DNA from: a phage
DNA: 64,000 bases
Direction: 5' to 3' (one strand)
Assembly (NCBI GenBank): GCA_028909515.1
Contig: GCA_028909515.1_4811.1
Shown: positions 5,820 to 60,830 of the stretch, piece after piece
How the letters are laid out: every line of letters starts with the position of its first letter
Numbering within the stretch: the first letter of the stretch is position 1
Notes under the pieces: generated by a model
The model's database searches: none
The model's input: the letters and a program-made list of their open reading frames with translations, nothing else
Told to the model about the DNA's origin: nothing
Translations under genes and position numbers: made by a program

Positions 5820-7358
5820 TTAAATAAGAACGTCACGACCTTCAACGCGACGCACAGCATCATCTTTAGAGTAGATTAGCGTGTATGTTGCATAGTATTC
5901 GGTGCGGTTATCGGAAGTGGTTTCAGTGTCAAAATCGACAGTCAACCAATAGCCGATAGTCTCAACCTGCCGCCAAGCAGTGTTGTCACCGGAAGTTTGC
6001 GTGATGTACTGTTTCTGGATTTCCGTCAGCGCCTTACCGACAGAGATGGTGCCGTTAACCTTCGCGTTGTCAACAGCAACTTGAATCATGGCTTGTACAG
6101 TCGCTTTGCCTTCTTCGTTCGCAGGCACGCGACCAAGATTCAAGAACATGCTGAACAGCTGAGAAGTGATAGCAGATTTAAGCCACATCTCGTTGGCATA
6201 AGTGTTCATGTCAACTGCTGCGGTAGACCCGCCCATCAGAACGCCACGCTGGAAGAAGGCGAGCGTTTGACCAGCTTGCTGAGTAGCGCCGATATAGTTT
6301 GCACGGTTTTGATCAGCAGTATCTGCGCGTGAATCAGTCGATACAGTAACATTTCGAGTGTCAAACTGATAATACATGTAGTTTTGAGTTGCGTTTACAG
6401 TATTATAGTTTGTCGCTGCGAGAATTTCAGCAGGTGCCTGGTCGATGTAATCATTCGCAAGGTTGGTTGCACGGATCATCATGCCAACGCCTGAGTAACC
6501 TTTCAGCGCGGTATAGTATGAGCCGATGTTGGCGAATGCAGTCGAGAACAGATACATGTACATATTGTTCTGCGAGTGAGTCCAAGCTGCAACAGCTGTG
6601 ATTTCTTCCAGCGTTCGGTCTGCTCCAGCGAAAAGGAATGAGCCAAAGTTGTTGGAAATCTCTACAGATGCCGCGATGGCTTCTACCGGACTTGCTACAC
6701 CCTGACCAGCGACCGTAACGGTGCCAGTAGTCGTCCAACCAAGCGCCTGAGATGGGTCTGTCGGTTGACCTGTTACGTTAATCGAAAGGTTTCCAGCGCC
6801 AGCGGTCGACGGGGCGGCTTCCAAAGTGAACTGCTGGGTGTTGGCATTCCAATACACTTCTGCATCAGCAAGTGCAGGCACCGACGTGCCACCTTCTGCT
6901 GCAAACTTGGTGTTGATTGCCGTTTCCAAAAGTTCCGCTACATTGGCAAGGCTTGTTGCCGCTGAAAGGTTGATGGCGTCAGTCAGGTAATCTGTGCCGT
7001 CATAAGTAATACTTAAGATAGCGCCAGTGAATGCCTGAAAAGTAGCAAGTGTTTTAGGCTCAGTATCGCCGATAACCATTGCAGGAATCGCCGTGGATAC
7101 AACGCGAGAAAAGCTGATTGAATCAGGCGAGTTGATTTGCTTGCTGATGAATCCAAAATACAGTGCTGCGCGCTTGTATTCTTCGGAAGAAAAACCGAAA
7201 TATGATCCAACGGCATCAGCAGTTGAAAATTCTGCTACAATGCCTGGCGGCAGAACTGTATTGGAAGTCATGATGCGAAGCGACAGTTTGCGAACTGCAA
7301 CAGCCGCGCCTGCTCCGACCCCTGATACAATTTTAATATAACGAGATTGACTGATCAC
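5820..7358 (-). CDS. tail sheath protein
   Basis: 512-aa ORF preceding the tube gene; sheath-like C-terminus '...YATYTLIYSKDDAVRRVEGRDVLI'. Confidence 0.7.
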   Translation of the reverse strand: MISQSRYIKIVSGVGAGAAVAVRKLSLRIMTSNTVLPPGIVAEFSTADAVGSYFGFSSEEYKRAALYFGFISKQINSPDSISFSRVVSTAIPAMVIGDTEPKTLATFQAFTGAILSITYDGTDYLTDAINLSAATSLANVAELLETAINTKFAAEGGTSVPALADAEVYWNANTQQFTLEAAPSTAGAGNLSINVTGQPTDPSQALGWTTTGTVTVAGQGVASPVEAIAASVEISNNFGSFLFAGADRTLEEITAVAAWTHSQNNMYMYLFSTAFANIGSYYTALKGYSGVGMMIRATNLANDYIDQAPAEILAATNYNTVNATQNYMYYQFDTRNVTVSTDSRADTADQNRANYIGATQQAGQTLAFFQRGVLMGGSTAAVDMNTYANEMWLKSAITSQLFSMFLNLGRVPANEEGKATVQAMIQVAVDNAKVNGTISVGKALTEIQKQYITQTSGDNTAWRQVETIGYWLTVDFDTETTSDNRTEYYATYTLIYSKDDAVRRVEGRDVLI

Positions 7359-11647: not shown

Positions 11648-13069
11648 TTATTCCCCTTTCAACCAAGCTTCAAATGCTTCGTCAGTTGCTGCAGAATCCG
11701 CAGCGGCCTTTTGTTTTGCGACTACACGCTGTTTTTGACCGTGTTCAACGCCGCGCAGATAGTTATCCACCACGTCAAACTCAGCACCATCAACGCACTT
11801 CAAGCCTAACTTTTTAGCGCCATATTTCGCTACGGACTTGGAATCCATAGTTGCATGATCAAAGGCACCAACAACTTTAGACAGGCGCTGGTAGAGGCTA
11901 TTCTTACGAGCAGAATCAGCGTAGAAAGCAGCAACTGCTGAATCAGATGCCATTGAGTGTTCCCCTTTTGCTGGACCTGGCGACGCTTTCGCCGCTTTTG
12001 TCGGTTTGTCATCTTTTTCGACCGAAGCCCCCTTTACGTTGCTGTTTTGCAGGCCGCTAACCACATCTTCAGCTTTGTCGCAAGGTGATACATCTTCAGC
12101 CTTGACTTCAACTTCTTCTTCGTCTTTGACTTCGGCTTCAACTTCTTCTTCATCACCTACCGCGCCACCTTTCAGTTTTGCAATAAGCGCTTCGATTTGG
12201 CTGATCAATTGCGGAAGTTCGCCGCCAGCGTGAGATTCAGTTTCAACTTCAAACTTCTCTTCACCTTCTGGGGTTTCTTCTGCTTCTGCCTTGACTTCTG
12301 GATCAACCATTACTTCTTCACGATTTTCGGTTGAGTCCTTCTCTTCTGCTTTCACTTCAACTTCATCCTGATGAGCAGCTTCAGTGCTCTCTTCGTTCAG
12401 AAATTGTTCGAGCGCAGGGATCAGTGATTTCAGCTGTTCAACAGCATTATCACGCGCTTTACCTTTTAACGGTTTTGGCATGTCTAAATCCTCGTTGGAT
12501 GGTGTTACAGTCGTCAAACAAAGATGGTCAAAGCAACGACCATCCAGCACCCGTGCACCTGGTACTCGACCAACGTCCACGAGAGCAATGTGGTTGCCGC
12601 GAAGAGTTGTCTGCACCACTTCATACGGCTGCCCGTCAAACTCTCCAGACTGTATGATGAATTCACAGTCATAGCCCAAAGACAAGTCAACCTTTCCAGA
12701 ATCGATGGCCTTCTTCAGACGACGGCTAAACACTTTAAGGTCGCCGCGCATCCATGGCTTGTCATAATAAACATTGCCAGTCAGAACGCCATCAACGCCA
12801 TACTCTTCGGGTGCTGTGTTATCCTCATCACCTTCAAATCCAGAAAGCATTTCGTGATTGTCGATGAAAGGGATATTTTTGAATGAATCTATCGCTTCGG
12901 GGTCTTTCACCGCTGACTCAGGGCGATAGACTTTTACGATGCGATTCGGATCACCATCAAGACCAACTTGACCAGCAGAATAATCAAAAATGCCAAATGA
13001 CGAAATTGGACAACCCATAATCGTCAAGAATCCATTTTTGTCAATTTCGCGTGCCGTTTGCATTCGCAT
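11648..13069 (-). CDS. scaffold protein, possibly fused to an N-terminal prohead-protease-like domain
   Basis: 473 aa; globular N-terminal ~190 aa, then long acidic helical region ('EEVEAEVKDEEEVEVKAED'); positioned before decoration and capsid genes. Confidence 0.55.
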   Translation of the reverse strand: MRMQTAREIDKNGFLTIMGCPISSFGIFDYSAGQVGLDGDPNRIVKVYRPESAVKDPEAIDSFKNIPFIDNHEMLSGFEGDEDNTAPEEYGVDGVLTGNVYYDKPWMRGDLKVFSRRLKKAIDSGKVDLSLGYDCEFIIQSGEFDGQPYEVVQTTLRGNHIALVDVGRVPGARVLDGRCFDHLCLTTVTPSNEDLDMPKPLKGKARDNAVEQLKSLIPALEQFLNEESTEAAHQDEVEVKAEEKDSTENREEVMVDPEVKAEAEETPEGEEKFEVETESHAGGELPQLISQIEALIAKLKGGAVGDEEEVEAEVKDEEEVEVKAEDVSPCDKAEDVVSGLQNSNVKGASVEKDDKPTKAAKASPGPAKGEHSMASDSAVAAFYADSARKNSLYQRLSKVVGAFDHATMDSKSVAKYGAKKLGLKCVDGAEFDVVDNYLRGVEHGQKQRVVAKQKAAADSAATDEAFEAWLKGE

Positions 13070-13159
13070 CCACCCTCAAATAAGTATTGTGTATTATATC
13101 TAATGAAAAAAACTTAGGCAAACAATAATTATGGTTTGAATATGTATAACAACCGATAT

Positions 13160-13455
13160 AGCCGCGCCTTTATTAGTGTGATACGGATGATACGGATAAA
13201 ATGAGGCGTATTTTTATCCGTATCGGTGTATAAGCCGCGCTATCACTGGTGTGCTACGGATGATACGGATGATACGGATACTTTTCATATATAAGAGTTT
13301 ATAAAAAAATAAAATTAAATTAGATATATAATTTTAAATTAATTTATTTGAATTCCTATATAGTACGGCGGCAACGCGTATCATCCGTATCATCCGTAAG
13401 ATTCTTTTGAAAACAACAACTTACTTGATACGGATGATACGTCATTATACGTATA
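13160..13455. repeat. iteron-flanked AT-rich element, copy 1
   Basis: Direct and inverted copies of TACGGATGATACGGAT (13179-13198, 13216-13226, 13255-13280, inverted 13377-13400, 13427-13445) around an ~85-bp AT-rich core; homologous to 29030..29365. Confidence 0.7.
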
Positions 13456-13632
13456 AAACTTGCGGCAATCCTTTGCCGATGAATTCAGTGAATATTAAAT
13501 AGCACTCCTGCCACTAAAACGCCAATCAACATCGAGTCATAAACAGCCCATTTCCAAGAAAGCAAAGAGTTGCAATTAATATTTCGCACTTTAACATAAC
13601 GTGACTGAATAATCTTTTGCATAACTTCCTCT

Positions 13633-20078: not shown

Positions 20079-20090
20079 GCTTGTACAAGC
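20079..20090. promoter_or_regulatory. perfect 12-bp palindrome GCTTGTACAAGC upstream of terminase start
   Basis: Read directly; 11 bp from the terminase ATG. Confidence 0.4.
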
Positions 20091-20143
20091 TATATCAAGT
20101 AAAATTATGATTCCAGCTTAGTAGTGGATAAAGGGTGATCTTT

Positions 20144-20171
20144 CGGCCAGATTTTTTCTGGCCATTTTTTT
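20144..20171 (+). terminator. rho-independent terminator-like hairpin
   Basis: GGCCAGA-tttttt-TCTGGCC followed by ATTTTTTT. Confidence 0.5.
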
Positions 20172-20190
20172 GATTAAAATTCACAAAAAG

Positions 20191-20218
20191 TTTGCCTTTC
20201 TGAAACTCTGCGTTATAA
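20191..20218 (+). promoter_or_regulatory. sigma70-like promoter
   Basis: TTGCCT-N16-TATAAT, about 28 bp upstream of 20246. Confidence 0.55.
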
Positions 20219-20245
20219 TCATATTAACTCAAAACCGGAGGTAAT

Positions 20246-20461
20246 ATGAAACTCATCGACCGTGCCATCAAAGCCATAGATAACCATTCCACAGCTATTG
20301 CATTCGTAATGGGATTCTGTTTTACTGCTGCGTTTGGCGACGTTCACACATTCAAGTCTGTCATCTTGTGCTGGTCTATCTGGTCCCTCATTTCTCTGGT
20401 TTTGATTCTTCCGATGACGTGGCTTGTCCTTACTTGTCTGGAATCTCAAGGTGAAGACTGA
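20246..20461 (+). CDS. small membrane protein
   Basis: 71 aa with two hydrophobic segments; sigma70-like promoter and RBS upstream. Confidence 0.5.
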   Translation: MKLIDRAIKAIDNHSTAIAFVMGFCFTAAFGDVHTFKSVILCWSIWSLISLVLILPMTWLVLTCLESQGED

Positions 20462-20682
20462 TGAGACTATCAATCAAAGAGCGGGCAAAACGGCCCAAAA
20501 GGAGTGAGTCAAAAGCTAAATACACGTGCATAGGCGGTCCATTCGACGGGCAGCCTATATGGCTTTCAAAATCTAATCCATCGACGGTTGAATTCAGCCT
20601 TCATGGAATGCGCGGCAGATACCTGCTAAACAGAGAAACAAGCGTCAGTACATTTGTGGAGTGGAAAGAAAATGGCAAGTGA
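20461..20682 (+). CDS. hypothetical protein
   Basis: 73-aa ORF, start overlaps upstream stop. Confidence 0.45.
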   Translation: MRLSIKERAKRPKRSESKAKYTCIGGPFDGQPIWLSKSNPSTVEFSLHGMRGRYLLNRETSVSTFVEWKENGK

Positions 20683-25358: not shown

Positions 25359-26070
25359 TGGGTGTTGGTTATTTAACCGTGAATCGTGGGTCGTGAATCT
25401 TGGGTCGCTTAGTGCGGCCCTTTCTTTTGCCTGCCGTGCAGGAGTGTACTGCAAATTTACTGTGGGTACAAAATAGTACGGTACTGTCTAGGATTTTTTC
25501 TTTGAAAAGTTAGTGGACCAAATGTGTCGTATTTTGATTAGTGTACTACAAATTTCATCAAGTACCAAAACGCACCAAAAGACCCATGCCATAAAAACCA
25601 CACGAACGCAATAATCAATCGCCGTTACAGTTTCCAGCGTTACAATTCGAAAGCGAATGATTCGAAGCATAATAATATGAAGCATAATGATTCGAAAGCG
25701 AATGATTGCGTGTAGGATAATATCGGTGGGGATTATTCTAGATGCATGTAATTTCGCATGCGTACTATTTTCGGACGAAGGGTCGGCATATTCCTCGTTT
25801 TAGTTCGGAACGAAGGGAAAGTTTTGCGCCTTTATAAAACAACGACTTACGCGACCCTCCCTAACGGTCCGATATAGGTGTCTATATAAAACAACGACTT
25901 ACGCGATGTTCTCCATTTAACGTAATACCCGTTATGCGAACTAAGGCGCATCTCGGCGAAGATTATGCGACGACGAAGGGAAGGATAAAGGAGTTTTCGC
26001 GGAGAAGCGCATCGGGATAGGGACGAAGAAAAGCCGCGACTAAGCGCGGCCTATTAGTAACGGAAGGGTA
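25359..26070. repeat. repeat-dense non-coding region between convergent genes
   Basis: Two copies of ATAAAACAACGACTTACGCGA; GTGAATC(G/T)TGGGTCG twice; GTGTACT(G/A)CAAATTT twice; permuted repeats of CGAAAGCGAATGATT and GAAGCATAAT; about five ACGAAGGG-type copies. Confidence 0.6.
26015..26040 (-). terminator. rho-independent terminator of 26071..26361
   Basis: Minus-strand hairpin GCCGCG...CGCGGC followed by TTTTCTTC. Confidence 0.55.
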
Positions 26071-26361
26071 TTATAAGGAGACGATTTTAAAATAAGTTAC
26101 TTCGCCGCCAAGTTGCGGGACCGCGATATATTCGCCGCCGATTTCGGTAATCGTATAGACGAAGCCGTTGATGGTTACGCGGTAGGATACTACGTCCTCG
26201 TCGCGATACTTGTAAAGGTCGAGGAAGTTGATCGGCTCATAAATAGACTCGATAGTCGCGTCTACGTTAGAGAGATAAACGCTCTCTAAGGTTTCGCCAA
26301 ATACGTTAGAGTTTTCGGAAGTCTCGACGCGAGCGGAACGGATAGCGGATAAAGTAATCAT
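26071..26361 (-). CDS. small acidic protein, paralog family (copy A)
   Basis: 96 aa, Glu/Asp-rich; own promoter, AGGAG RBS and terminator; similar to 26995..27279 ('SIR.A.VE...NVD.TIE...NG..Y...EIG'). Confidence 0.6.
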   Translation of the reverse strand: MITLSAIRSARVETSENSNVFGETLESVYLSNVDATIESIYEPINFLDLYKYRDEDVVSYRVTINGFVYTITEIGGEYIAVPQLGGEVTYFKIVSL

Positions 26362-26427
26362 AATATTCTCCTAGTTAGTCGGGAGGGTAGCGACCTATTC
26401 GCTACCTCATCCCCTCTCGATATAAAC

Positions 26428-26456
26428 ATTATAGTCTTAGTGTACGAATAAGTAAA
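26428..26456 (-). promoter_or_regulatory. sigma70-like promoter for acidic paralog A
   Basis: Minus-strand TTTACT-N17-TATAAT with internal TACACT. Confidence 0.55.
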
Positions 26457-26466
26457 GCACTTTTCG

Positions 26467-26769
26467 TTATTCTGCGATAAAATATTTATAAGCTTTATCG
26501 CCTTCTATATCGAGATACTCGACGATAATTAACGCTTCGCCGCGCGGCGTAACGGTTTCGATGAGGGTTACGGTTTCGTCGTCGGCCCGAATGAAGCGGA
26601 TGGCGCTACGTTCGGCGTACTTAATCTCGTCGAAGGAAAGGCCGACGAAGGCGACCGCGCGGACTTTAATTCCGCTCCACTCTAGTTCCGCGTTAACGGC
26701 TTTAAGAAGAGAAGCGACGGTTAAGCGGTCTTCGTCGTAAGTAAGAAGAGAAGAAATTAAAGTAGCCAT
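26467..26769 (-). CDS. small acidic protein, paralog family (copy B)
   Basis: Start at 'MATLISS' behind GGGAG RBS; acidic; same promoter architecture as copies A and C. Confidence 0.55.
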   Translation of the reverse strand: MATLISSLLTYDEDRLTVASLLKAVNAELEWSGIKVRAVAFVGLSFDEIKYAERSAIRFIRADDETVTLIETVTPRGEALIIVEYLDIEGDKAYKYFIAE

Positions 26770-26825
26770 AATAAAACTCCCGATGCTAGTAGAAGGAAGG
26801 GCCATCACCCGTCTCGATATAAACA

Positions 26826-26854
26826 AGTATACGCGAGTGTACGAAGAAGTAAAG
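26826..26854 (-). promoter_or_regulatory. sigma70-like promoter for acidic paralog B
   Basis: Minus-strand TTTACT-N16-TATACT with internal TACACT. Confidence 0.55.
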
Positions 26855-26898
26855 AAAAAAAGATAAAATAATTTATCTCATTTTTATCGAAAAAGTGC

Positions 26899-26926
26899 TT
26901 TACTTTTTTCTACACTATATTATAAT
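26899..26926 (+). promoter_or_regulatory. sigma70-like promoter for acidic paralog C (divergent from B)
   Basis: GTGCTTTACTT-N-TACACT-N-TATAAT; -35 TTTACT, 16-bp spacer. Confidence 0.55.
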
Positions 26927-26994
26927 GTACTCATATCGGGACGGGATGAGTTAACGAATAGGTCGTTAACGCCTCTCCCAACTAGGAGTTTAAA

Positions 26995-27279
26995 ATGGCT
27001 ATTCTTAACGTTTCTTCTATTCGCAACGCTATCGTCGAGAACTACGGCGTAAAACAAATTTTATCCGAAGTCTACGCCGCGAACGTAGACCAAACTATCG
27101 AGGCGGGTGGGGTAACGGTCGCCGAGGCTTTTAAACTTTACGCGGCGCTACCGGAATCGGACCGCGAAGCCTTCGAAGTAAACGTTAACGGATACTTCTT
27201 CGAAGCGGTCGAAATCGGTAACATCTTACTCGTTATGGGCGAAGAAGAATTTGAGACCTTCTCCCTCGTCGAAGCGTAA
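26995..27279 (+). CDS. small acidic protein, paralog family (copy C)
   Basis: 94 aa, about 14 Glu versus 4 basic residues; AGGAG RBS; promoter TTTACT-N16-TATAAT upstream. Confidence 0.6.
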   Translation: MAILNVSSIRNAIVENYGVKQILSEVYAANVDQTIEAGGVTVAEAFKLYAALPESDREAFEVNVNGYFFEAVEIGNILLVMGEEEFETFSLVEA

Positions 27280-27359
27280 GAGAGGATTTTTAGAGCGTCG
27301 TGCGCGGCGCTTTAATAAAATTCTTTCGCGCCTAGCGCCCTAACAAATAGGAGTTTATT

Positions 27360-27986
27360 ATGGTTAGCTTAAATCGTTTCTCGACTAGCGGCGACGTTAT
27401 CGCAACTAAGACCGCCGACCTCGTTGCATTTTATAATGCAAATTCCGGTTCGAAGCCGATTAAGAAATTTGCGGACCGCCGGACCGCCGAGACTCGCGTA
27501 ATCGCGTTAATCGAGTCCTTAAACGCGCTCGATGAGCCGTCCAACGAATCGCCCATTCCCGACGCGAAGCCGCGCGAGGAAGTGTCCAGCGATGTAAAAA
27601 CGCATAAGGCGCGCGCGGTCGTTAAAAAGGCCGAGCCGACCCAGGAAGAACTCGACGCGATGAGCGATGAAGAGTATGAAGCCTTCGTTAAGAGCGGCTT
27701 AAACGATAGTGCGAATTGCGTAGTGCAAAATGGAACTCCTTCCCATCGCCGTTCGAATAGCGAAGGTATTGCAAAAAGTTGGGATAATAAGGAAGTGGCG
27801 CAAAAGCGTCTTACTCGTAACGGTGTTATGGTCGAGGGTGTAGGCGAGTTCAAATCGGTCCGCGTAGCGTTCGCCGCGCTGGGCTTACCGGATAGCAAGC
27901 ATATTCGCTTCCGCATGAAGCTTAAAGAAGCTGGACGCTTAAACTTCGAGTTCGGCAACAAGTCCTACACCTTCCAGATTATCTAA
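27360..27986 (+). CDS. hypothetical protein
   Basis: 208 aa; AGGAG RBS; CpG-rich, CTG-poor codon usage like the adjacent paralogs; hairpin terminator follows. Confidence 0.55.
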   Translation: MVSLNRFSTSGDVIATKTADLVAFYNANSGSKPIKKFADRRTAETRVIALIESLNALDEPSNESPIPDAKPREEVSSDVKTHKARAVVKKAEPTQEELDAMSDEEYEAFVKSGLNDSANCVVQNGTPSHRRSNSEGIAKSWDNKEVAQKRLTRNGVMVEGVGEFKSVRVAFAALGLPDSKHIRFRMKLKEAGRLNFEFGNKSYTFQII

Positions 27987-27992
27987 TCGAAT

Positions 27993-28014
27993 GGCGGCCC
28001 TTCGGGGTCGCTTT
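27993..28014 (+). terminator. rho-independent terminator after 27360..27986
   Basis: GCGGCCC-ttcg-GGGTCGC (one G-U pair) followed by TTTT. Confidence 0.5.
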
Positions 28015-28036
28015 TCATAGTGCAAATTGGTGGATT

Positions 28037-28300
28037 ATGAATACTCTTATTCTCATCGCTACGTTGTCCATCGGAAGTGGTCGCACCTTATCCCTTTATG
28101 ACCATAGTGCAAATTGCGCTTACCCTACGCGCGTTGCGGCGATAGTTAATAGTGCAAATAAGATGCTATTCGAGACTTGCTGGCGGGTCGATAACGAGAA
28201 AGGTCGGGTAGTCTTAGGTTATAGTGCAAATCTGCTGGTGGAGTCGTTCGATTGGACGGCTGAAGGTCGTAAATTGTTACGTAAAGTGACTAAAAGATGA
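28037..28300 (+). CDS. hypothetical protein with in-frame 'SAN' repeats (doubtful)
   Basis: 87-aa ORF carrying three in-frame copies of ATAGTGCAAAT, with further copies flanking it; may be a DNA-level repeat array, not a gene. Confidence 0.3.
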   Translation: MNTLILIATLSIGSGRTLSLYDHSANCAYPTRVAAIVNSANKMLFETCWRVDNEKGRVVLGYSANLLVESFDWTAEGRKLLRKVTKR

Positions 28301-28345
28301 CTTATAATAATACACTTTCTAACGCGTTTATGGTTGCAACCTTCC

Positions 28346-28402
28346 CCGTCGTATTACCGACGGCCCTAGAAGTGGAGAAAATGTGTTCTAGGGCCGTTTT
28401 AT
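28346..28402 (+). terminator. tandem-hairpin terminator
   Basis: CCGTCG-tattac-CGACGG, then CGGCCCTAGAA-N14-TTCTAGGGCCG followed by TTTTAT. Confidence 0.45.
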
Positions 28403-28414
28403 AGTGCAAATTGG

Positions 28415-28888
28415 CTAGTGGCGGGAGAATTGCTCGCCTTCTTTGGCCGCCTCTCCAAAATCCTTGTAGAAATCGTCCATAGAACGGCCCATTTTACTAT
28501 TGCCGTTTTCATCAATCATCGTGATGCCGTAGATGATATTCAGTTCACGAATAGCATTAAGCTTGGCTGACGCCGCGACTTCTGGATCACGCACAAGCTT
28601 GACCAAATTGTGAATTGCACCTTTTACGCTCCACAAATCCTTGAGTGGCATCTCTTCCATACGCTTTTTGAAGCGCATTTTGTAGTATGGGTTGCGTTGC
28701 GCGCAAAGGATTCGCTGGCCAGTGTAGTTATCCGTTGCAACTTCCATTCCAAATACTAGTGCAAAAGCTGCGCGCATGTCATGGCCCTGAATAACAAGGT
28801 CAATGAACTCATCGAATAAAGCCTGATTGTGCTCTGCAAATCGCGGGTCTTCAAAGTCTTCAGGCATCGCTACATAATCTTGACTCAT
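28415..28888 (-). CDS. hypothetical protein
   Basis: Start set at 'MSQDYVAM'; three ATAGTGCAAAT-type copies lie at or just upstream of the start. Confidence 0.5.
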   Translation of the reverse strand: MSQDYVAMPEDFEDPRFAEHNQALFDEFIDLVIQGHDMRAAFALVFGMEVATDNYTGQRILCAQRNPYYKMRFKKRMEEMPLKDLWSVKGAIHNLVKLVRDPEVAASAKLNAIRELNIIYGITMIDENGNSKMGRSMDDFYKDFGEAAKEGEQFSRH

Positions 28889-29029
28889 AGTGCAAAATCC
28901 CATAGTGCAAATTAATAGTGTGAATTATACAATGGATGGACATTATATTCAAGTGCAGATTGATGTTCATTATGGCTATAAACGTACACAAATCATAGTG
29001 CTGATAGAGTTGCGGACCGTGGTGCGTGG

Positions 29030-29365
29030 TGTACTGTTTGATACGTATAAAAGAAATCCATCCCTTTCGCCGCTTGCTATGCAAATCAATGACTTAGCCG
29101 CTGCTGGCTGGTTGAAGCGTATCATGACGTATCATCCGTATTGCCGCAAGTCTTTGTTTTTACTTATATCTTACGGATGATACGTATAAATATAAGTTTA
29201 GTATAAGTATGAGGATGTAGAAAAAAATTAATTTAAATTAATTCAAAATGGAGTTAATTAATTTTCTGGAATTCTATATATATTATGTTTGCACCCGTAT
29301 CATCCGTATCAGCGTATTTTTCCTTATAAATCAATAGCCCAATGATACGTCATGATACGTATGAA
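29030..29365. repeat. iteron-flanked AT-rich element, copy 2
   Basis: TACGGATGATACG-type iterons at about 29117-29140 (inverted), 29171-29187, 29294-29314 (inverted), 29342-29362 around an AT-rich core sharing 'AAAAAAATTAATTTAAATTAATT' and 'GAATTCTATATA' with copy 1. Confidence 0.7.
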
Positions 29366-29855
29366 TGACTGCCTTCGCGGCAAAACAATCCCAGTGTATA
29401 CCAACAATCCCAGGCGCGGCGCACCACAGGGCCACGGTACAATATCCTGTGAAGAGGTGACTCTCATTTCCTTATACGTATCATCATGGACTACGATTAC
29501 TAAAACTAAAAACATTATTAAAATTCTGAGCACCAACACCACAAGCACCAAGACCCACGGCTAACGCACCGTTAGCCAATACTCCACGATAAAATATCCT
29601 ATAAATTACAAACAATCCGCGTATATAATAGCACCATAATTATTTATTTTTGATTCAATATTTACACTAAAATAAGCCATTGTATTTTCCTCACTGTTCT
29701 ATCCGTATTATTTAGTGGATTAAACTGTCATAAATACTTATAAACGTTGATTGCCACAATATGCAATAATCTTGATAAATTATTATAATATTTTCGCTCT
29801 CTTAAATTACAGCCTTGAATCGTAAATAACCACAAAAAGCCTCACATTACACAGG

Positions 29856-42584: not shown

Positions 42585-42911
42585 ATGAACGAAAAAGAGA
42601 CGAAGCAACGCGAACGTGCAACACACGTCGGAATCGTTGAGTCCTTCCTTAATACAAGATTGAATTCAAGCCTAACAATCATGCGATTCCTGGGTCAACC
42701 AGACAGAATCAAATTTATTTTTGCCGCAAATCCGGTATCGCTGTACATCCCTGTTGAATCCATGGCGTACTTAGTGCGCGACGAGAAAGGATGGAAGATA
42801 CCAAACACAACTGTTTTCTTCAGCCATGTTGATGGTGAGATGTTTGAACGAAAAGAAGATTGCCATTTTATTCCAGTATATCTGGACCTTGAAAGCGTAG
42901 TGGAGTTATAA
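42585..42911 (+). CDS. hypothetical protein
   Basis: 108-aa ORF; stop overlaps helicase start. Confidence 0.45.
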   Translation: MNEKETKQRERATHVGIVESFLNTRLNSSLTIMRFLGQPDRIKFIFAANPVSLYIPVESMAYLVRDEKGWKIPNTTVFFSHVDGEMFERKEDCHFIPVYLDLESVVEL

Positions 42912-58251: not shown

Positions 58252-59214
58252 ATGACAGCATTAAAACCAATGAAGGGTTGCCAACGTAAGCAGATTATCG
58301 AGCGCGGCGAGGACGTGCCGCTGCCTTGCGGACTGTCATTCAAGGTCGATGGCATACGTGCAATGGCGTATGACAACTTGCCAATGGGCACTTCCGGCAT
58401 GCCGTTGCGCAACGTTCAAATCAAAAAAGAGTTCCTCTTTTTGGGTGAACTAATTCACGGACTTGATGGAGAGCTAATCGACGGAAATCCAAATGATAAG
58501 AACGTCATGCAACAGGCCTATACTGCATGCATGAATACTGATGCAATCACTAACTTTACATGGTGGGTGTTTGATGACTTCAGCGACCCTGATCTGCCTT
58601 TTGAAAAGCGTTATGCAAACTATCGAGCTAGAGTTGCTGAAGTTAATCAGCATCTCATCAACCATGGTCGACGCCCATTCCTTCGCGCTCTCGAATATCG
58701 AAACATCGAAAATATGGAACAGTACGCGGCGATGCAAATCGAAGCAGACCAGCTTGGATATGAAGGCTTGTATGGCAAGTCTTGGACGGGCAAATATAAG
58801 CATGGCCGCGCGACGCCGAAGTCACGTGATGTGTGGAAGGACAAGCCGTGGACCGATGAAGAAGGGTTGATCATAGACTTCGTTGAGATGATGGAGAACA
58901 ACAACGAAGCATTCATTGACGAATTGGGTCGCACCAAGCGTTCAAAAGAGGCTGAAGGTTTAGTTGCGAAAGGATACCTTGGCTCATTCGTAGTCGTCAA
59001 TCCAAAATATGTGGATGAGAAAGGTGAAATGATTCCTTTCCGCGTCTCCGCTGGTTCAATGCCTATGGCAGAGCGTAAAATGCTTTGGGAGAATCGCGAG
59101 AACTATCGCGATAAATACCTAACGTATAAATTCTTTAACTTTGGCATCGTCGACGTGCCGCGCTCTGCTTTGTATAAATGCTTCCGTGATATTACCGATA
59201 TGGAGTATTTTTAA
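58252..59214 (+). CDS. ATP-dependent DNA ligase
   Basis: Nucleotidyltransferase motif I 'FKVDGIRAM' (K-x-D-G-x-R); size comparable to small phage ligases. Confidence 0.7.
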   Translation: MTALKPMKGCQRKQIIERGEDVPLPCGLSFKVDGIRAMAYDNLPMGTSGMPLRNVQIKKEFLFLGELIHGLDGELIDGNPNDKNVMQQAYTACMNTDAITNFTWWVFDDFSDPDLPFEKRYANYRARVAEVNQHLINHGRRPFLRALEYRNIENMEQYAAMQIEADQLGYEGLYGKSWTGKYKHGRATPKSRDVWKDKPWTDEEGLIIDFVEMMENNNEAFIDELGRTKRSKEAEGLVAKGYLGSFVVVNPKYVDEKGEMIPFRVSAGSMPMAERKMLWENRENYRDKYLTYKFFNFGIVDVPRSALYKCFRDITDMEYF

Positions 59215-59288
59215 GACACTAGATAAATAATTGATGCGGATAATCTATCGCGTCGTTTTATAGAATTTAATATACAGTGTATACATAA

Positions 59289-59315
59289 AGCCGGAAATCT
59301 CCGGCTTTTCTTTTA
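59289..59315 (+). terminator. rho-independent terminator after ligase gene
   Basis: AGCCGGA-aatc-TCCGGCT followed by TTTCTTTTATTT. Confidence 0.6.
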
Positions 59316-59390
59316 TTTACCTTTCGCCTTATTTACTTTCAAAACCTTCGGCCTATACTATTAATATTCGTAATCAAAAGGTGGATTATA

Positions 59391-59933
59391 ATGAAATCGA
59401 AAAATTTAAAGATTGTTTTGATCATCATCATGGCTATGCTGACAGTTTTGTTCTTCACCAAAAGTGCTTCGGCTGAAAGTATGTTTACGCCGCCAAACAG
59501 TAATGCAAAAGTGTTAACTCGATATTTTAACAACGGCCAATCGTTCGAATTTTGCTGGAACAAATACGATGTGATAAAGGAAAGGTTTGACAAGGAAAAG
59601 ATGTGCGTAATGAATGATCGCGGTCGCCAAGTCGTGTCGTTTGTGTTCGGAATGTCAATTGCAAAAGTTGATGCCCCTGAAATCGTTGTCAGGTATAATA
59701 CATTGGACAGCGGCCTTGTCGACAAGACATACCCTGTTGCAGTAGACAGCAGGACAGGCGGCGCACTCATACTTACTCCAGAAGATAAATCGGATGTCGT
59801 TAACATGCTCATCAACAGCAAAGACGTAATCGTGTTTTATCATGTTGAAGGCGTATCAGACTACCAAATGGCCTACTATCCACTGCCCTTAAGAGATGCT
59901 TCAGGTAATGTTAAGACACAGGATGTGCGTTGA
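59391..59933 (+). CDS. secreted/periplasmic protein
   Basis: Signal peptide 'MKSKNLKIVLIIIMAMLTVLFFTKSASA'; promoter TTTACT-N16-TATACT upstream. Confidence 0.5.
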   Translation: MKSKNLKIVLIIIMAMLTVLFFTKSASAESMFTPPNSNAKVLTRYFNNGQSFEFCWNKYDVIKERFDKEKMCVMNDRGRQVVSFVFGMSIAKVDAPEIVVRYNTLDSGLVDKTYPVAVDSRTGGALILTPEDKSDVVNMLINSKDVIVFYHVEGVSDYQMAYYPLPLRDASGNVKTQDVR

Positions 59934-60160
59934 CATGGGTGGTAGTTATGCAGAAAGATTTGGAAGAAAACAAAAGGCTGAAAAAGGCTTTGACGTCTCA
60001 AATCTTGTCCCTGTTGGTAAAGCTTATTGGGGAGTCAATCAGCAACAAGGTGGCACGGGCCGCGATTGTTGGCGTGATTGGCATGGCGGGGTATTACTTC
60101 GACTTGCCAGACATTGATACAAGTTCCGCGCCGCCCGTCCAGGTTGAAGCCGTAAAATAA
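59930..60160 (+). CDS. small membrane protein (holin-like candidate)
   Basis: 76 aa with one hydrophobic segment 'AAIVGVIGMAGYYF'; convergent with endolysin across a bidirectional terminator. Confidence 0.4.
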   Translation: MTWVVVMQKDLEENKRLKKALTSQILSLLVKLIGESISNKVARAAIVGVIGMAGYYFDLPDIDTSSAPPVQVEAVK

Positions 60161-60162
60161 AC

Positions 60163-60185
60163 AAAGGCCCATATGGGCCTTTTTC
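60163..60185. terminator. bidirectional rho-independent terminator between convergent genes
   Basis: Perfect palindrome GGCCCATATGGGCC flanked by an A-run upstream and T-run downstream. Confidence 0.65.
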
Positions 60186-60830
60186 TTACATAACTGCTAG
60201 TGCATCCTTGTAACGCTTCCTTCGCAAATCCCCATGGTTAGCCGTATTCGGCGCGGCCCCGTTAATCCGCTTAACGGTTGAATCAAAATTTCCTGCATCA
60301 GCAAGAGGAATACAGCCGCTATTCTTAAAGAACCATGCCGCGCTGTCAGCGATGTATTTTGGTTCAGTCAGAATATCAGGATTGTTCAATGCGTCATAGC
60401 CTGATTGACGTGTATATTCCGCATAGTTCGCTTTGCCAGTCAGCTGAATGGCACCACGGCCACGGTACTTCCAACCGTCGCCCGATGCTACCGAACCGTT
60501 GCCCATGCGGTTTGCATATGTATTATTGGCGATTTCCATTGGTTTACGGGCAATCGACAATGCCAAGGAGTTGGGTGCACCGCCGAAACGACCGCTGGCG
60601 CTGTAACGGCTAGGCCATGTATTAGCAAGACCTTGAGCGGAATAATTCAAGTTTTCCACAAATGTCTTCAGGCTGCCTGTTTCCACTCCTACGTTTGCAA
60701 GCAACGCCGCGATGGCATTCTTGCTTTTGATTCCGTAGTGCTCACAAGCCTGCTTGAAAGGGTCCACCCATTTCTCTGCAACATCCATGCTGCATCCGGT
60801 CCCTTTAGATATTACGTTTGCATTAATCAT
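60186..60830 (-). CDS. endolysin, glycoside hydrolase family 19-like
   Basis: 'ANVGVETGSLKTFVENLNYS' and 'GDGWKYRGRGAIQLTGKANY' match GH19 catalytic-region patterns. Confidence 0.7.
   Translation of the reverse strand: MINANVISKGTGCSMDVAEKWVDPFKQACEHYGIKSKNAIAALLANVGVETGSLKTFVENLNYSAQGLANTWPSRYSASGRFGGAPNSLALSIARKPMEIANNTYANRMGNGSVASGDGWKYRGRGAIQLTGKANYAEYTRQSGYDALNNPDILTEPKYIADSAAWFFKNSGCIPLADAGNFDSTVKRINGAAPNTANHGDLRRKRYKDALAVM

What the first reader, a model, noticed from the sequence alone, without database searches (positions are those of the whole stretch)
13160..13455. Iteron-flanked AT-rich element inside the head-gene block (copy 1 of 2): origin-like or enhancer-like architecture
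Multiple direct and inverted copies of TACGGATGATACGGAT bracket an ~85-bp AT-rich core. A second, clearly homologous element lies 16 kb away at 29030..29365, with the same iteron and shared core strings. Iterons flanking an AT-rich unwinding segment are the classic layout of replication origins; equally they could be binding sites for a phage activator driving the scaffold and capsid genes just downstream on the minus strand.
Basis: partly seen in the sequence, partly recalled or inferred. Interest (0 to 1): 0.65.

Follow-up and report, generated by a model that had tools for sequence, protein, structure and literature searches.

The report
Uncut twin of the phage packaging site
The repeat-flanked AT-rich element in the head-gene block is a conserved second copy of this phage's DNA-packaging start site, which matters because it offers defined DNA motifs for testing how the small terminase recognises viral DNA.

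Summary
9-bp units (TGATACGGA and variants) in direct and inverted orientation bracket an 86-bp, 89.5% AT core at 13160-13455, and a homologous element lies at 29030-29365.

The window is a Wifcevirus, an E. coli myovirus related to PB1. In relatives whose genome ends were mapped, the left physical end of virion DNA lies in the AT core of copy 2 (window 29249|29250), just upstream of a small-terminase (TerS) gene that matches a solved TerS structure. Copy 2 is therefore the packaging-initiation (pac/terminus) site.

The flagged copy 1 is its paralogue. It keeps the repeat arms but lacks the conserved cut-site motif, and sits between a terminator and the promoter of the protease-scaffold-capsid operon.

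The same pairing occurs in four genera (Wifcevirus, Myosmarvirus, Pbunavirus, Bcepfunavirus). Each has a different repeat sequence, shared by both of its copies.

Best reading: both copies bind the same protein, most likely TerS. Copy 1 is an uncut auxiliary site, either a pairing partner for pac or a control of head-gene expression. Its role is inferred, not shown. A replication origin gains no support but is not excluded. The second copy was not described in the literature searched.

The parts
13070..13484 (.). Element 1 in full: the non-coding gap between the 45-aa ORF and the protease gene (the finding)
   Evidence: ORF list. The Bas101 annotation shows the same gap at 6552-6957. All 29 Wifcevirus records cover at least 80% of the 3-kb query that contains this gap, each in one aligned piece.
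13463..13478 (-). Terminator-like hairpin that ends the portal / head-morphogenesis / 45-aa ORF transcription unit
   Evidence: Scan: CGGCAAAGGATTGCCG followed by a T-rich tail.
13426..13455 (+). Gene-distal outer arm: TGATACGGA TGATACGTC ATTATACGTAT
   Evidence: It aligns with 29343-29365 of element 2.
13374..13398 (-). Gene-distal inner arm: tandem 9-bp units, read CTTACGGATGATACGGATGATACGC on the minus strand
   Evidence: Conserved in all Wifcevirus element 1 copies; Bas101 has one unit fewer.
13280..13365 (.). AT-rich core (89.5% AT). It lacks the cut-site motif found in element 2.
13252..13279 (+). Gene-proximal inner arm: GCTACGGATGATACGGATGATACGGAT, about three tandem 9-bp units
   Evidence: It forms the 22-bp stem with 13374-13398.
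13179..13224 (.). Gene-proximal outer arm: two tandem units plus an inverted unit, forming a 13-bp-stem hairpin (GATACGGATAAAA...TTTTATCCGTATC)
13093..13121 (-). Sigma70-like promoter TTGCCT-17-TATAAT for the protease-scaffold-capsid operon
   Evidence: The same TTGCC(T/C)...GATATAATACA motif precedes the MTx protease gene.
11648..13069 (-). Head maturation protease gene, the first gene downstream of element 1
13485..13622 (-). 45-aa ORF with a hydrophobic C-terminus. A similar small ORF precedes element 1 in all four genera.
29030..29365 (.). Element 2, the paralogue that holds the genome's left physical end (pac/terminus site). Arms at 29118-29140(-), 29172-29187(+), 29293-29311(-) and 29343-29365(+).
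29245..29257 (+). Cut-site motif AAAAT|GGAGTTAA. The virion DNA left end falls between 29249 and 29250.
   Evidence: Mansfield position 1 equals window 29249. WFC has the same end. The ECO71P1 record ends 10 bp away. The motif is conserved in all element 2 variants and is unique in the window.
28415..28903 (-). Small terminase (TerS) gene
   Evidence: phmmer against PDB 7UXE 'Small terminase', E=6e-34. The profile search gave E=5e-83.
28924..28952 (-). Sigma70-like promoter TTGAAT-17-TATAAT upstream of terS
25578..29249 (.). Inferred direct terminal repeat, by homology to Mansfield's 3,673-bp DTR. The WFC record implies a boundary 81 bp further, at 25497.
   Evidence: Also PMC6753283 and PMC6563267.

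Best explanation
Elements 1 and 2 are paralogous terminase-recognition modules.

Element 2 is the active packaging-initiation site. Repeat arms on both sides of an AT-rich core recruit a sequence-specific protein, most likely the ring-shaped small terminase encoded next door. The large terminase then cuts in the core at AAAAT|GGAGTTAA, creating the left end of virion DNA.

Element 1, the finding, keeps the arms and much of the core but not the cut-site bases. It probably binds the same protein without being cut. There it would act as an auxiliary site. One possibility is that it pairs with pac through TerS-TerS contacts (synapsis). The other is that it couples TerS occupancy to the adjacent protease-scaffold-capsid promoter.

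Shown: the homology of the two copies, a physical DNA end in the element 2 type site in three genera, the TerS identity of the neighbouring gene, and conservation with co-varying repeats in four genera.

Inferred: that TerS is the binder, that element 1 is not cut, and what element 1 does.
For: 1. Physical ends.
- Mansfield's PhageTerm DTR start equals window 29249, in the element 2 core (PMC6753283).
- WFC, sequenced by another laboratory, has the same start, with terS at 361-834 in both records (PMC6563267).
- The ECO71P1 record ends 10 bp away.

2. TerS. The adjacent gene matches the solved E217 small terminase, E=6e-34.

3. Same design in other genera, each with its own repeat.
- Serratia phage MTx: its PhageTerm end lies in an element that is 69.7% identical over 267 bp (E=1e-21) to its own protease-upstream element. 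The repeat is ACTTTTCG.
- Pbunavirus: the JG024 long-read pac start at 59,376, Ab28 position 1 and PB1 58,910 are the same nucleotide. It lies in the core of an element homologous over about 330 bp to the protease-upstream gap. The repeat is GGTAATTTGG (PMC10913387, PMC4482731).
- BcepF1: the protease-upstream gap matches the region upstream of TerS, E=3e-13. All 11 of 11 exact TAACTAAG sites in the genome lie in the two loci.

4. Constraint on the repeats. Element 2's gene-distal half exists in three mosaic variants, and each keeps tandem repeat units at the same distance from the cut.

5. Element 1 lacks the cut motif. It is near-invariant in Wifcevirus and at least 89% conserved in 295 of 297 Pbunavirus records.

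6. No sign of cutting at element 1. Only one major read-start position is reported for JG024. Only 1 of 297 Pbunavirus records opens inside element 1.

7. Bridging is plausible. E217 TerS is a decamer whose C-terminal helix is proposed to promote higher-order oligomers (PMC9611059).
Against: - No binding data exist for any protein on these repeats.
- TerS-pac binding is notoriously weak in vitro in other phages (PMC9611059).
- The ends were mapped in relatives, not in this exact phage.
- Absence of cutting at element 1 rests on published summaries, not on re-analysed reads. One Pbunavirus record (E215) and one IMG/VR contig do break inside element 1.
- Xanthomonas phage XcP1 has the same TerS family but no detectable pair, so the second copy is not obligatory for this terminase.
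- In three genera element 2 also lies next to a primase gene, which equally fits an origin.
Confidence: 0.55

Rival explanations
1. The repeats are operator or activator sites for a phage-encoded transcription regulator other than TerS. This regulator controls the promoters just downstream, for terS and for protease-scaffold-capsid. The packaging cut merely happens to lie inside one of these regulatory regions.
For: Both elements lie between a transcription-unit end and a sigma70-like promoter on the same strand. The protease promoter motif is conserved in MTx. Pbunavirus records annotate predicted sigma70 promoters in the AT cores. Phage 14-1 uses host RNA polymerase plus a second, phage-specific promoter class that probably needs phage factors (PMC10914365).
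Against: The repeat clusters occur at only two loci per genome, not at other late promoters. Spacing from arms to promoter differs between the copies: about 58 bp for element 1, against about 87-166 bp for element 2 here and about 365 bp in PB1. The cut falls centrally between the arms in two genera and between repeat copies in a third, which is hard to call coincidence.
Confidence: 0.2
2. Both elements are replication origins: iterons bound by an initiator such as the primase-helicase, plus an AT-rich unwinding region. Packaging would then start at one of the origins.
For: The layout has iterons and an AT-rich segment. In PB1, MTx and BcepF1, element 2 lies directly after a primase or primase-helicase gene. 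The authors of SCUT-S1 remarked that the AT-rich pac region 'could be a replication origin' (PMC6521218). From my own knowledge, two-site iteron systems exist in phages: SPP1 oriL/oriR and P4 ori/crr.
Against: Cumulative GC skew has no turning point at element 1. The window's minimum is at about 42.75 kb, at the helicase|primase divergence. In this window the primase genes are about 9 kb from element 2. The repeats flank the core symmetrically in inverted orientation instead of lying on one side. Element 1 sits in the late head operon. A virion DNA end in the core is direct evidence for packaging, and there is none for initiation of replication.
Confidence: 0.12
3. Element 1 is a functionless relic or duplicate of the pac region, kept similar to element 2 only by occasional gene conversion.
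For: There are signs of exchange between the copies. In FEC19, ECML-117, Bas101 and Mansfield, the distal arm of element 2 is nearly identical over about 45 bp to the element 1 arm.
Against: Element 1 holds the same syntenic position (small ORF | element | protease) in four genera whose proteases share only about 45-54% identity in the three for which this was measured. Each keeps its own repeat in both copies. Non-coding DNA without a function would not persist like this. It is also as conserved as the flanking coding sequence in 295 of 297 Pbunavirus genomes.
Confidence: 0.05

Closest known systems
Phage P1 pac site (from my own knowledge; not tested here)
   Same: Short repeated recognition motifs are clustered on both sides of a central region of about 80-100 bp in which the terminase makes the initiating cut. 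The site lies beside or within the small-subunit (pacA) gene.
   Different: P1 uses hexamers containing GATC and is regulated by Dam methylation. Here the units are 9 bp, have no GATC, and lie in inverted orientation to form a quasi-palindrome. P1 has no conserved second, uncut copy elsewhere in its genome.
Phage SPP1 pac (pacL-pacC-pacR) (from my own knowledge, and PMC9611059)
   Same: TerS contacts several sites flanking the cleavage site, and pac lies at the start of the terS gene region.
   Different: SPP1 boxes are not symmetric. No paralogous copy is present in its head-gene cluster.
Phage T4 gp16 'twin-ring pac synapsis' between homologous sequences in genes 16 and 19 (PMC9611059, and my own knowledge)
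   Same: Two homologous sequences within one genome are proposed to be bound by the small terminase, and they flank terminase genes. Here terS, terL and the portal gene lie between element 2 and element 1 in the packaging direction.
   Different: The T4 sites are short and lie within coding sequence, and T4 has no unique pac cut. Here both are large non-coding modules, one holds a precise cut, and the pair is conserved across four genera.
Two-site iteron replication systems: SPP1 oriL/oriR and P4 ori/crr (from my own knowledge)
   Same: Two distant homologous iteron clusters per genome, with AT-rich DNA.
   Different: Those are bound by replication initiators and carry no virion DNA ends. Here one copy holds the packaging cut and adjoins terS.

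Membership tests
Terminase packaging-initiation site (pac / DTR-terminus site) | Holds the physical DNA end made by terminase | tested here: met
   Met for element 2, by homology: Mansfield and WFC ends equal window 29249. The equivalents in MTx and in JG024/Ab28/PB1 agree. It is not met for element 1: the cut motif is absent and no end is reported there.
Terminase packaging-initiation site (pac / DTR-terminus site) | Lies next to or within the small terminase gene | tested here: met
   The element 2 cut is 346 bp upstream of terS, which matches 7UXE at E=6e-34. Element 1 is about 16 kb away, next to the protease gene, so it fails this feature.
Terminase packaging-initiation site (pac / DTR-terminus site) | Sequence-specific binding by TerS | not testable with these tools
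   Only indirect support: each genus has its own repeat, and both of its copies share it.
Iteron-type replication origin | Repeats next to an AT-rich unwinding segment | tested here: met
   The repeats and the 82-90% AT core are present. The repeats flank the core on both sides in inverted orientation.
Iteron-type replication origin | Replication starts there, or compositional skew switches there | tested here: not met
   Cumulative GC skew has no turning point at element 1. The window minimum is at 42,751. This is a weak test for a phage; actual initiation cannot be tested here.
Iteron-type replication origin | Adjacent to the initiator gene | tested here: inconclusive
   Element 1: no. Element 2: next to a primase gene in PB1, MTx and BcepF1, but about 9 kb away in Wifcevirus.
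Activator-dependent promoter / upstream enhancer | Promoter downstream on the same strand | tested here: met
   TTGCCT-17-TATAAT at 13121-13093 and TTGAAT-17-TATAAT at 28952-24. These are consensus matches only.
Activator-dependent promoter / upstream enhancer | Same motif at other co-regulated promoters, and consistent spacing to the promoter | tested here: not met
   Repeat clusters occur at only two loci. Spacing differs between the copies and between genera.
T4-like paired pac sequences (synapsis model) | Two homologous terminase-recognition sequences in one genome that flank terminase genes | tested here: inconclusive
   Homology and flanking arrangement are met. TerS binding and pairing cannot be tested. 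Sequence exchange between the copies is suggested.

The most novel reading that the evidence does not exclude
PB1-like myoviruses use a two-site packaging checkpoint. TerS rings loaded on pac (element 2) and on its uncut twin upstream of the capsid genes (element 1) pair with each other. This would link packaging initiation to concatemer state or to capsid-gene expression, and would be a natural, conserved example of the 'twin-ring pac synapsis' so far proposed only for T4.
Probability: 0.2. Interest if true: 0.8.

Novelty: new variant of a known kind. Interest (0 to 1): 0.62.

Why it matters
How small terminases recognise viral DNA is a long-standing open problem. Few pac sites are defined, and TerS-pac binding has been hard to demonstrate.

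This family now offers four things:
- a mapped cut;
- explicit repeat motifs that differ by genus (TGATACGGA, ACTTTTCG, GGTAATTTGG, TAACTAAG);
- a solved TerS structure (E217);
- a yeast-based rebooting system (JG024).

It also offers a built-in control, a second copy with the arms but without the cut motif. Pbunaviruses are among the phages most used for P. aeruginosa therapy. Knowing their pac architecture, and an apparently essential-looking non-coding element in the head operon, matters for genome engineering and for assessing transduction.

Tried and rejected
- IMG/VR scans for the repeats returned almost only single chance matches. Clustered repeats were found only in FEC19 and ECML-117, with one match at the start of the WFC record, all already known genomes.
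- Rfam found no RNA family in either gap.
- IHF consensus sites: one in element 2, none in element 1 or in PB1. This is not a shared feature.
- The short GCGGCA/TGCCGC motif looked conserved across genera. In Pbunavirus it is part of a 22-bp long-range inverted repeat, and in element 1 of the window it is partly the terminator stem. It is not enriched genome-wide in the window.
- The right DTR boundary (window 25578 or 25497) has neither the repeats nor the cut motif. Mansfield and WFC disagree on it by 81 bp.
- Xanthomonas phage XcP1 has the same TerS family but no pair was detected.
- The E217 terminase paper (PMC10026623) and the 14-1 TSS tables are not held.
- A mobile-element (MITE-like) reading was rejected, because both copies hold fixed syntenic positions in four genera.

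Full report
**The observation**

The 16-mer TACGGATGATACGGAT and close variants occur 10 times in the window at up to 3 mismatches. The chance expectation is 0.33, and no shuffle reached 10. Nine of the ten lie in 13182-13444 or 29125-29308.

The underlying unit is 9 bp (TGATACGGA, TGATACGTC or TGATACGTA). Of 21 TGATACG heptamers in the window, 17 fall in the two elements. Each element has this layout: outer arm, inner arm, AT-rich core, inverted inner arm, inverted outer arm.

- The two cores are the two most AT-rich 86-bp stretches in the window.
- Element 1 aligns with element 2 in the same orientation at 68.6% over 210 bp, E=3.6e-12.
- Element 1 is also a quasi-palindrome (73% over 148 bp, E=8.5e-14).
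- As single-stranded DNA it folds into a hairpin with a 22-bp stem, z=-6.5.

**Context**

The window is a Wifcevirus, an E. coli myovirus of about 68 kb. Its nearest relatives are TH32 at 99% and Bas101 at 98.6%. This genus is distantly related to the Pseudomonas PB1 group (PMC11990801).

Element 1 fills the 415-bp gap between a 45-aa ORF and the head maturation protease gene. All of these are on the minus strand, inside the late structural operon. A terminator-like hairpin (13463-13478) precedes it, and a sigma70-like promoter (13121-13093) follows it.

Element 2 lies upstream of a 162-aa gene. That gene matches the solved small terminase of Pbunavirus E217 (PDB 7UXE) at E=6e-34. Rfam finds no RNA family in either gap.

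**Element 2 is the packaging start**

[quoted passage not shown] Its position 1 aligns to window 29249, in the middle of the element 2 core...TTCAAAAT|GGAGTTAA....
- WFC was sequenced by another group with a terminal repeat of 'about 3.7 kb' (PMC6563267). It has terS at the same record coordinates, so it has the same left end.
- The ECO71P1 record ends 10 bp away.
- Across Wifceviruses, the half of element 2 that lies outside the repeat exists in three unrelated mosaic variants. Each keeps tandem TACGGATGA units at the same distance from the cut, and all keep the cut motif.
- The motif AAAATGGAGTTAA is unique in the window.

**The same design in other genera**

*Serratia phage MTx (Myosmarvirus).* Its protease is 53% identical to the window's. 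It has a PhageTerm repeat of 3,566 bp. Its first gene is a TerS homologue at position 377. Its end lies in an element that is 69.7% identical over 267 bp (E=1.4e-21) to the gap upstream of its own protease gene. The repeat there is ACTTTTCG.

*Pbunavirus.* The PB1 gap gp21|protease aligns over about 330 bp with the gap primase|TerS. Both share the repeat GGTAATTTGG and a 22-bp long-range inverted repeat. The mapped ends agree:

- the experimentally supported pac start of JG024, where 36 of 161 long reads begin at 59,376, backed by a pac restriction fragment (PMC10913387);
- the read-pile-up end of Ab28 (PMC4482731);
- the starts of at least five other records.

All fall on one nucleotide, PB1 58,910, in the core between the arms. 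SCUT-S1 also has a PhageTerm pac site 'in an AT-rich region' (PMC6521218).

*Burkholderia phage BcepF1.* The 410-bp gap upstream of the protease matches a segment upstream of an unannotated TerS homologue (E=3e-13). All 11 exact TAACTAAG sites in the 72-kb genome lie in these two loci.

*A negative case.* Xanthomonas phage XcP1 has the TerS family but no detectable pair.

**What element 1 is**

It is a conserved paralogue of the pac site. It keeps the arms, and with them whatever protein they bind, but differs at the bases around the cut in both Wifcevirus and Pbunavirus.

- It is nearly invariant among Wifceviruses.
- It is at least 89% identical in 295 of 297 Pbunavirus records.
- It always follows a small ORF with a hydrophobic C-terminus and precedes the protease gene.
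- Four genera carry four different repeats, and each repeat is shared by both copies in its genome. This argues strongly that one sequence-specific protein reads both sites.

TerS is the most economical candidate. The cut lies between the arms, and terS is adjacent in all four genera. TerS is a ring oligomer that could contact tandem 9-10 bp units; that last point is inference.

Published data give one major cut only. One Pbunavirus record and one metagenomic contig do break inside element 1, so rare cutting is not excluded.

**What element 1 might do**

This is inference. One option is pairing with pac, as in the T4 twin-ring synapsis model. E217 TerS has a C-terminal helix proposed to link rings (PMC9611059). 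The near-identity of some element 2 arms to element 1 arms suggests exchange between the copies. The other option is control of the adjacent protease-scaffold-capsid promoter.

**Rivals**

*A separate transcription regulator.* It fits the position between terminator and promoter. It is weakened because the repeats occur at only two loci and the spacing to the promoter is inconsistent.

*A replication origin.* It fits the iteron plus AT-rich look, and the primase gene adjacent to element 2 in three genera. It has no direct support. GC skew shows nothing at element 1. A virion DNA end in the core points to packaging.

**Caveats**

The ends were mapped in relatives, not in this isolate. The right repeat boundary differs by 81 bp between Mansfield and WFC and has no repeats. 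Wifce- and Myosmarviruses are reported to have fixed terminal repeats, whereas Pbunaviruses are reported as headful and permuted. The left cut is the common feature.

**Novelty**

The position of pac, or of the terminus, has been noted in passing for several of these phages. I found no description of the repeat architecture or of the conserved second copy in the searchable literature. The E217 terminase paper could not be read.

Noticed in passing
window 25400-25900: Around the inferred right DTR boundary (25578 from Mansfield, 25497 from WFC) there are unrelated repeat sets: GTACTGCAAATTTACTGTGGGTAC / AGTGTACTACAAATTTCATCAAGTAC; GAAAGCGAATGATT x2 with GAAGCATAAT x2; and TATAAAACAACGACTT x2. 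They may be early promoters or operators, or a right-end signal.
   Followed up: no
window 29400-29600; also the MTx junction (L239 end) and PB1 58600-58780 / 59200-59400: There is a strand-composition dyad around pac in three genera. The gene-distal side is G/T-rich, with Chi-like strings such as GCTTGTGGTGTTGGTGC and GTTGGTGGTGCG. The TerS side is C/A-rich. This might protect the unpackaged end from RecBCD, which is speculative.
   Followed up: no
window ~42,750: The cumulative GC-skew minimum of the window lies at the divergent junction between the Dda-helicase operon and the primase operon (Bas101 46218|46261). This is a more conventional candidate for a replication origin than either element.
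   Followed up: partly
window 13485-13622 (-), with equivalents in MTx, PB1 gp21 and BcepF1.120: A 45-49 aa ORF with a hydrophobic C-terminal segment (..VDL.II..) always sits immediately upstream of element 1 in all four genera. Its function is unknown.
   Followed up: partly
L253 (BcepF1) 20082-20486, minus strand: The BcepF1 TerS homologue (tblastn E=9e-25) is not annotated. The record instead lists small plus-strand ORFs (.059-.061) over it. In JG024, a CDS annotated at 59205-59786 overlaps the pac element, while the real TerS is at about 59,992-60,408.
   Followed up: partly
L128 (IMG/VR UViG_3300045988_152943 contig end); Pbunavirus E215 record start: A metagenomic Wifcevirus contig ends 334 bp upstream of the protease start, inside element 1. 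The E215 record opens inside the element 1 core. These are probably assembly breaks at repeats or at AT-rich low coverage, but physical ends are not excluded.
   Followed up: partly
window 29249-29311, and PB1 ~58,888: The pac cut coincides with a mosaic boundary. In many Wifcevirus and Pbunavirus genomes, nucleotide similarity stops or switches variant within a few tens of bp of the cut. This suggests the terminus is a recombination hotspot.
   Followed up: partly
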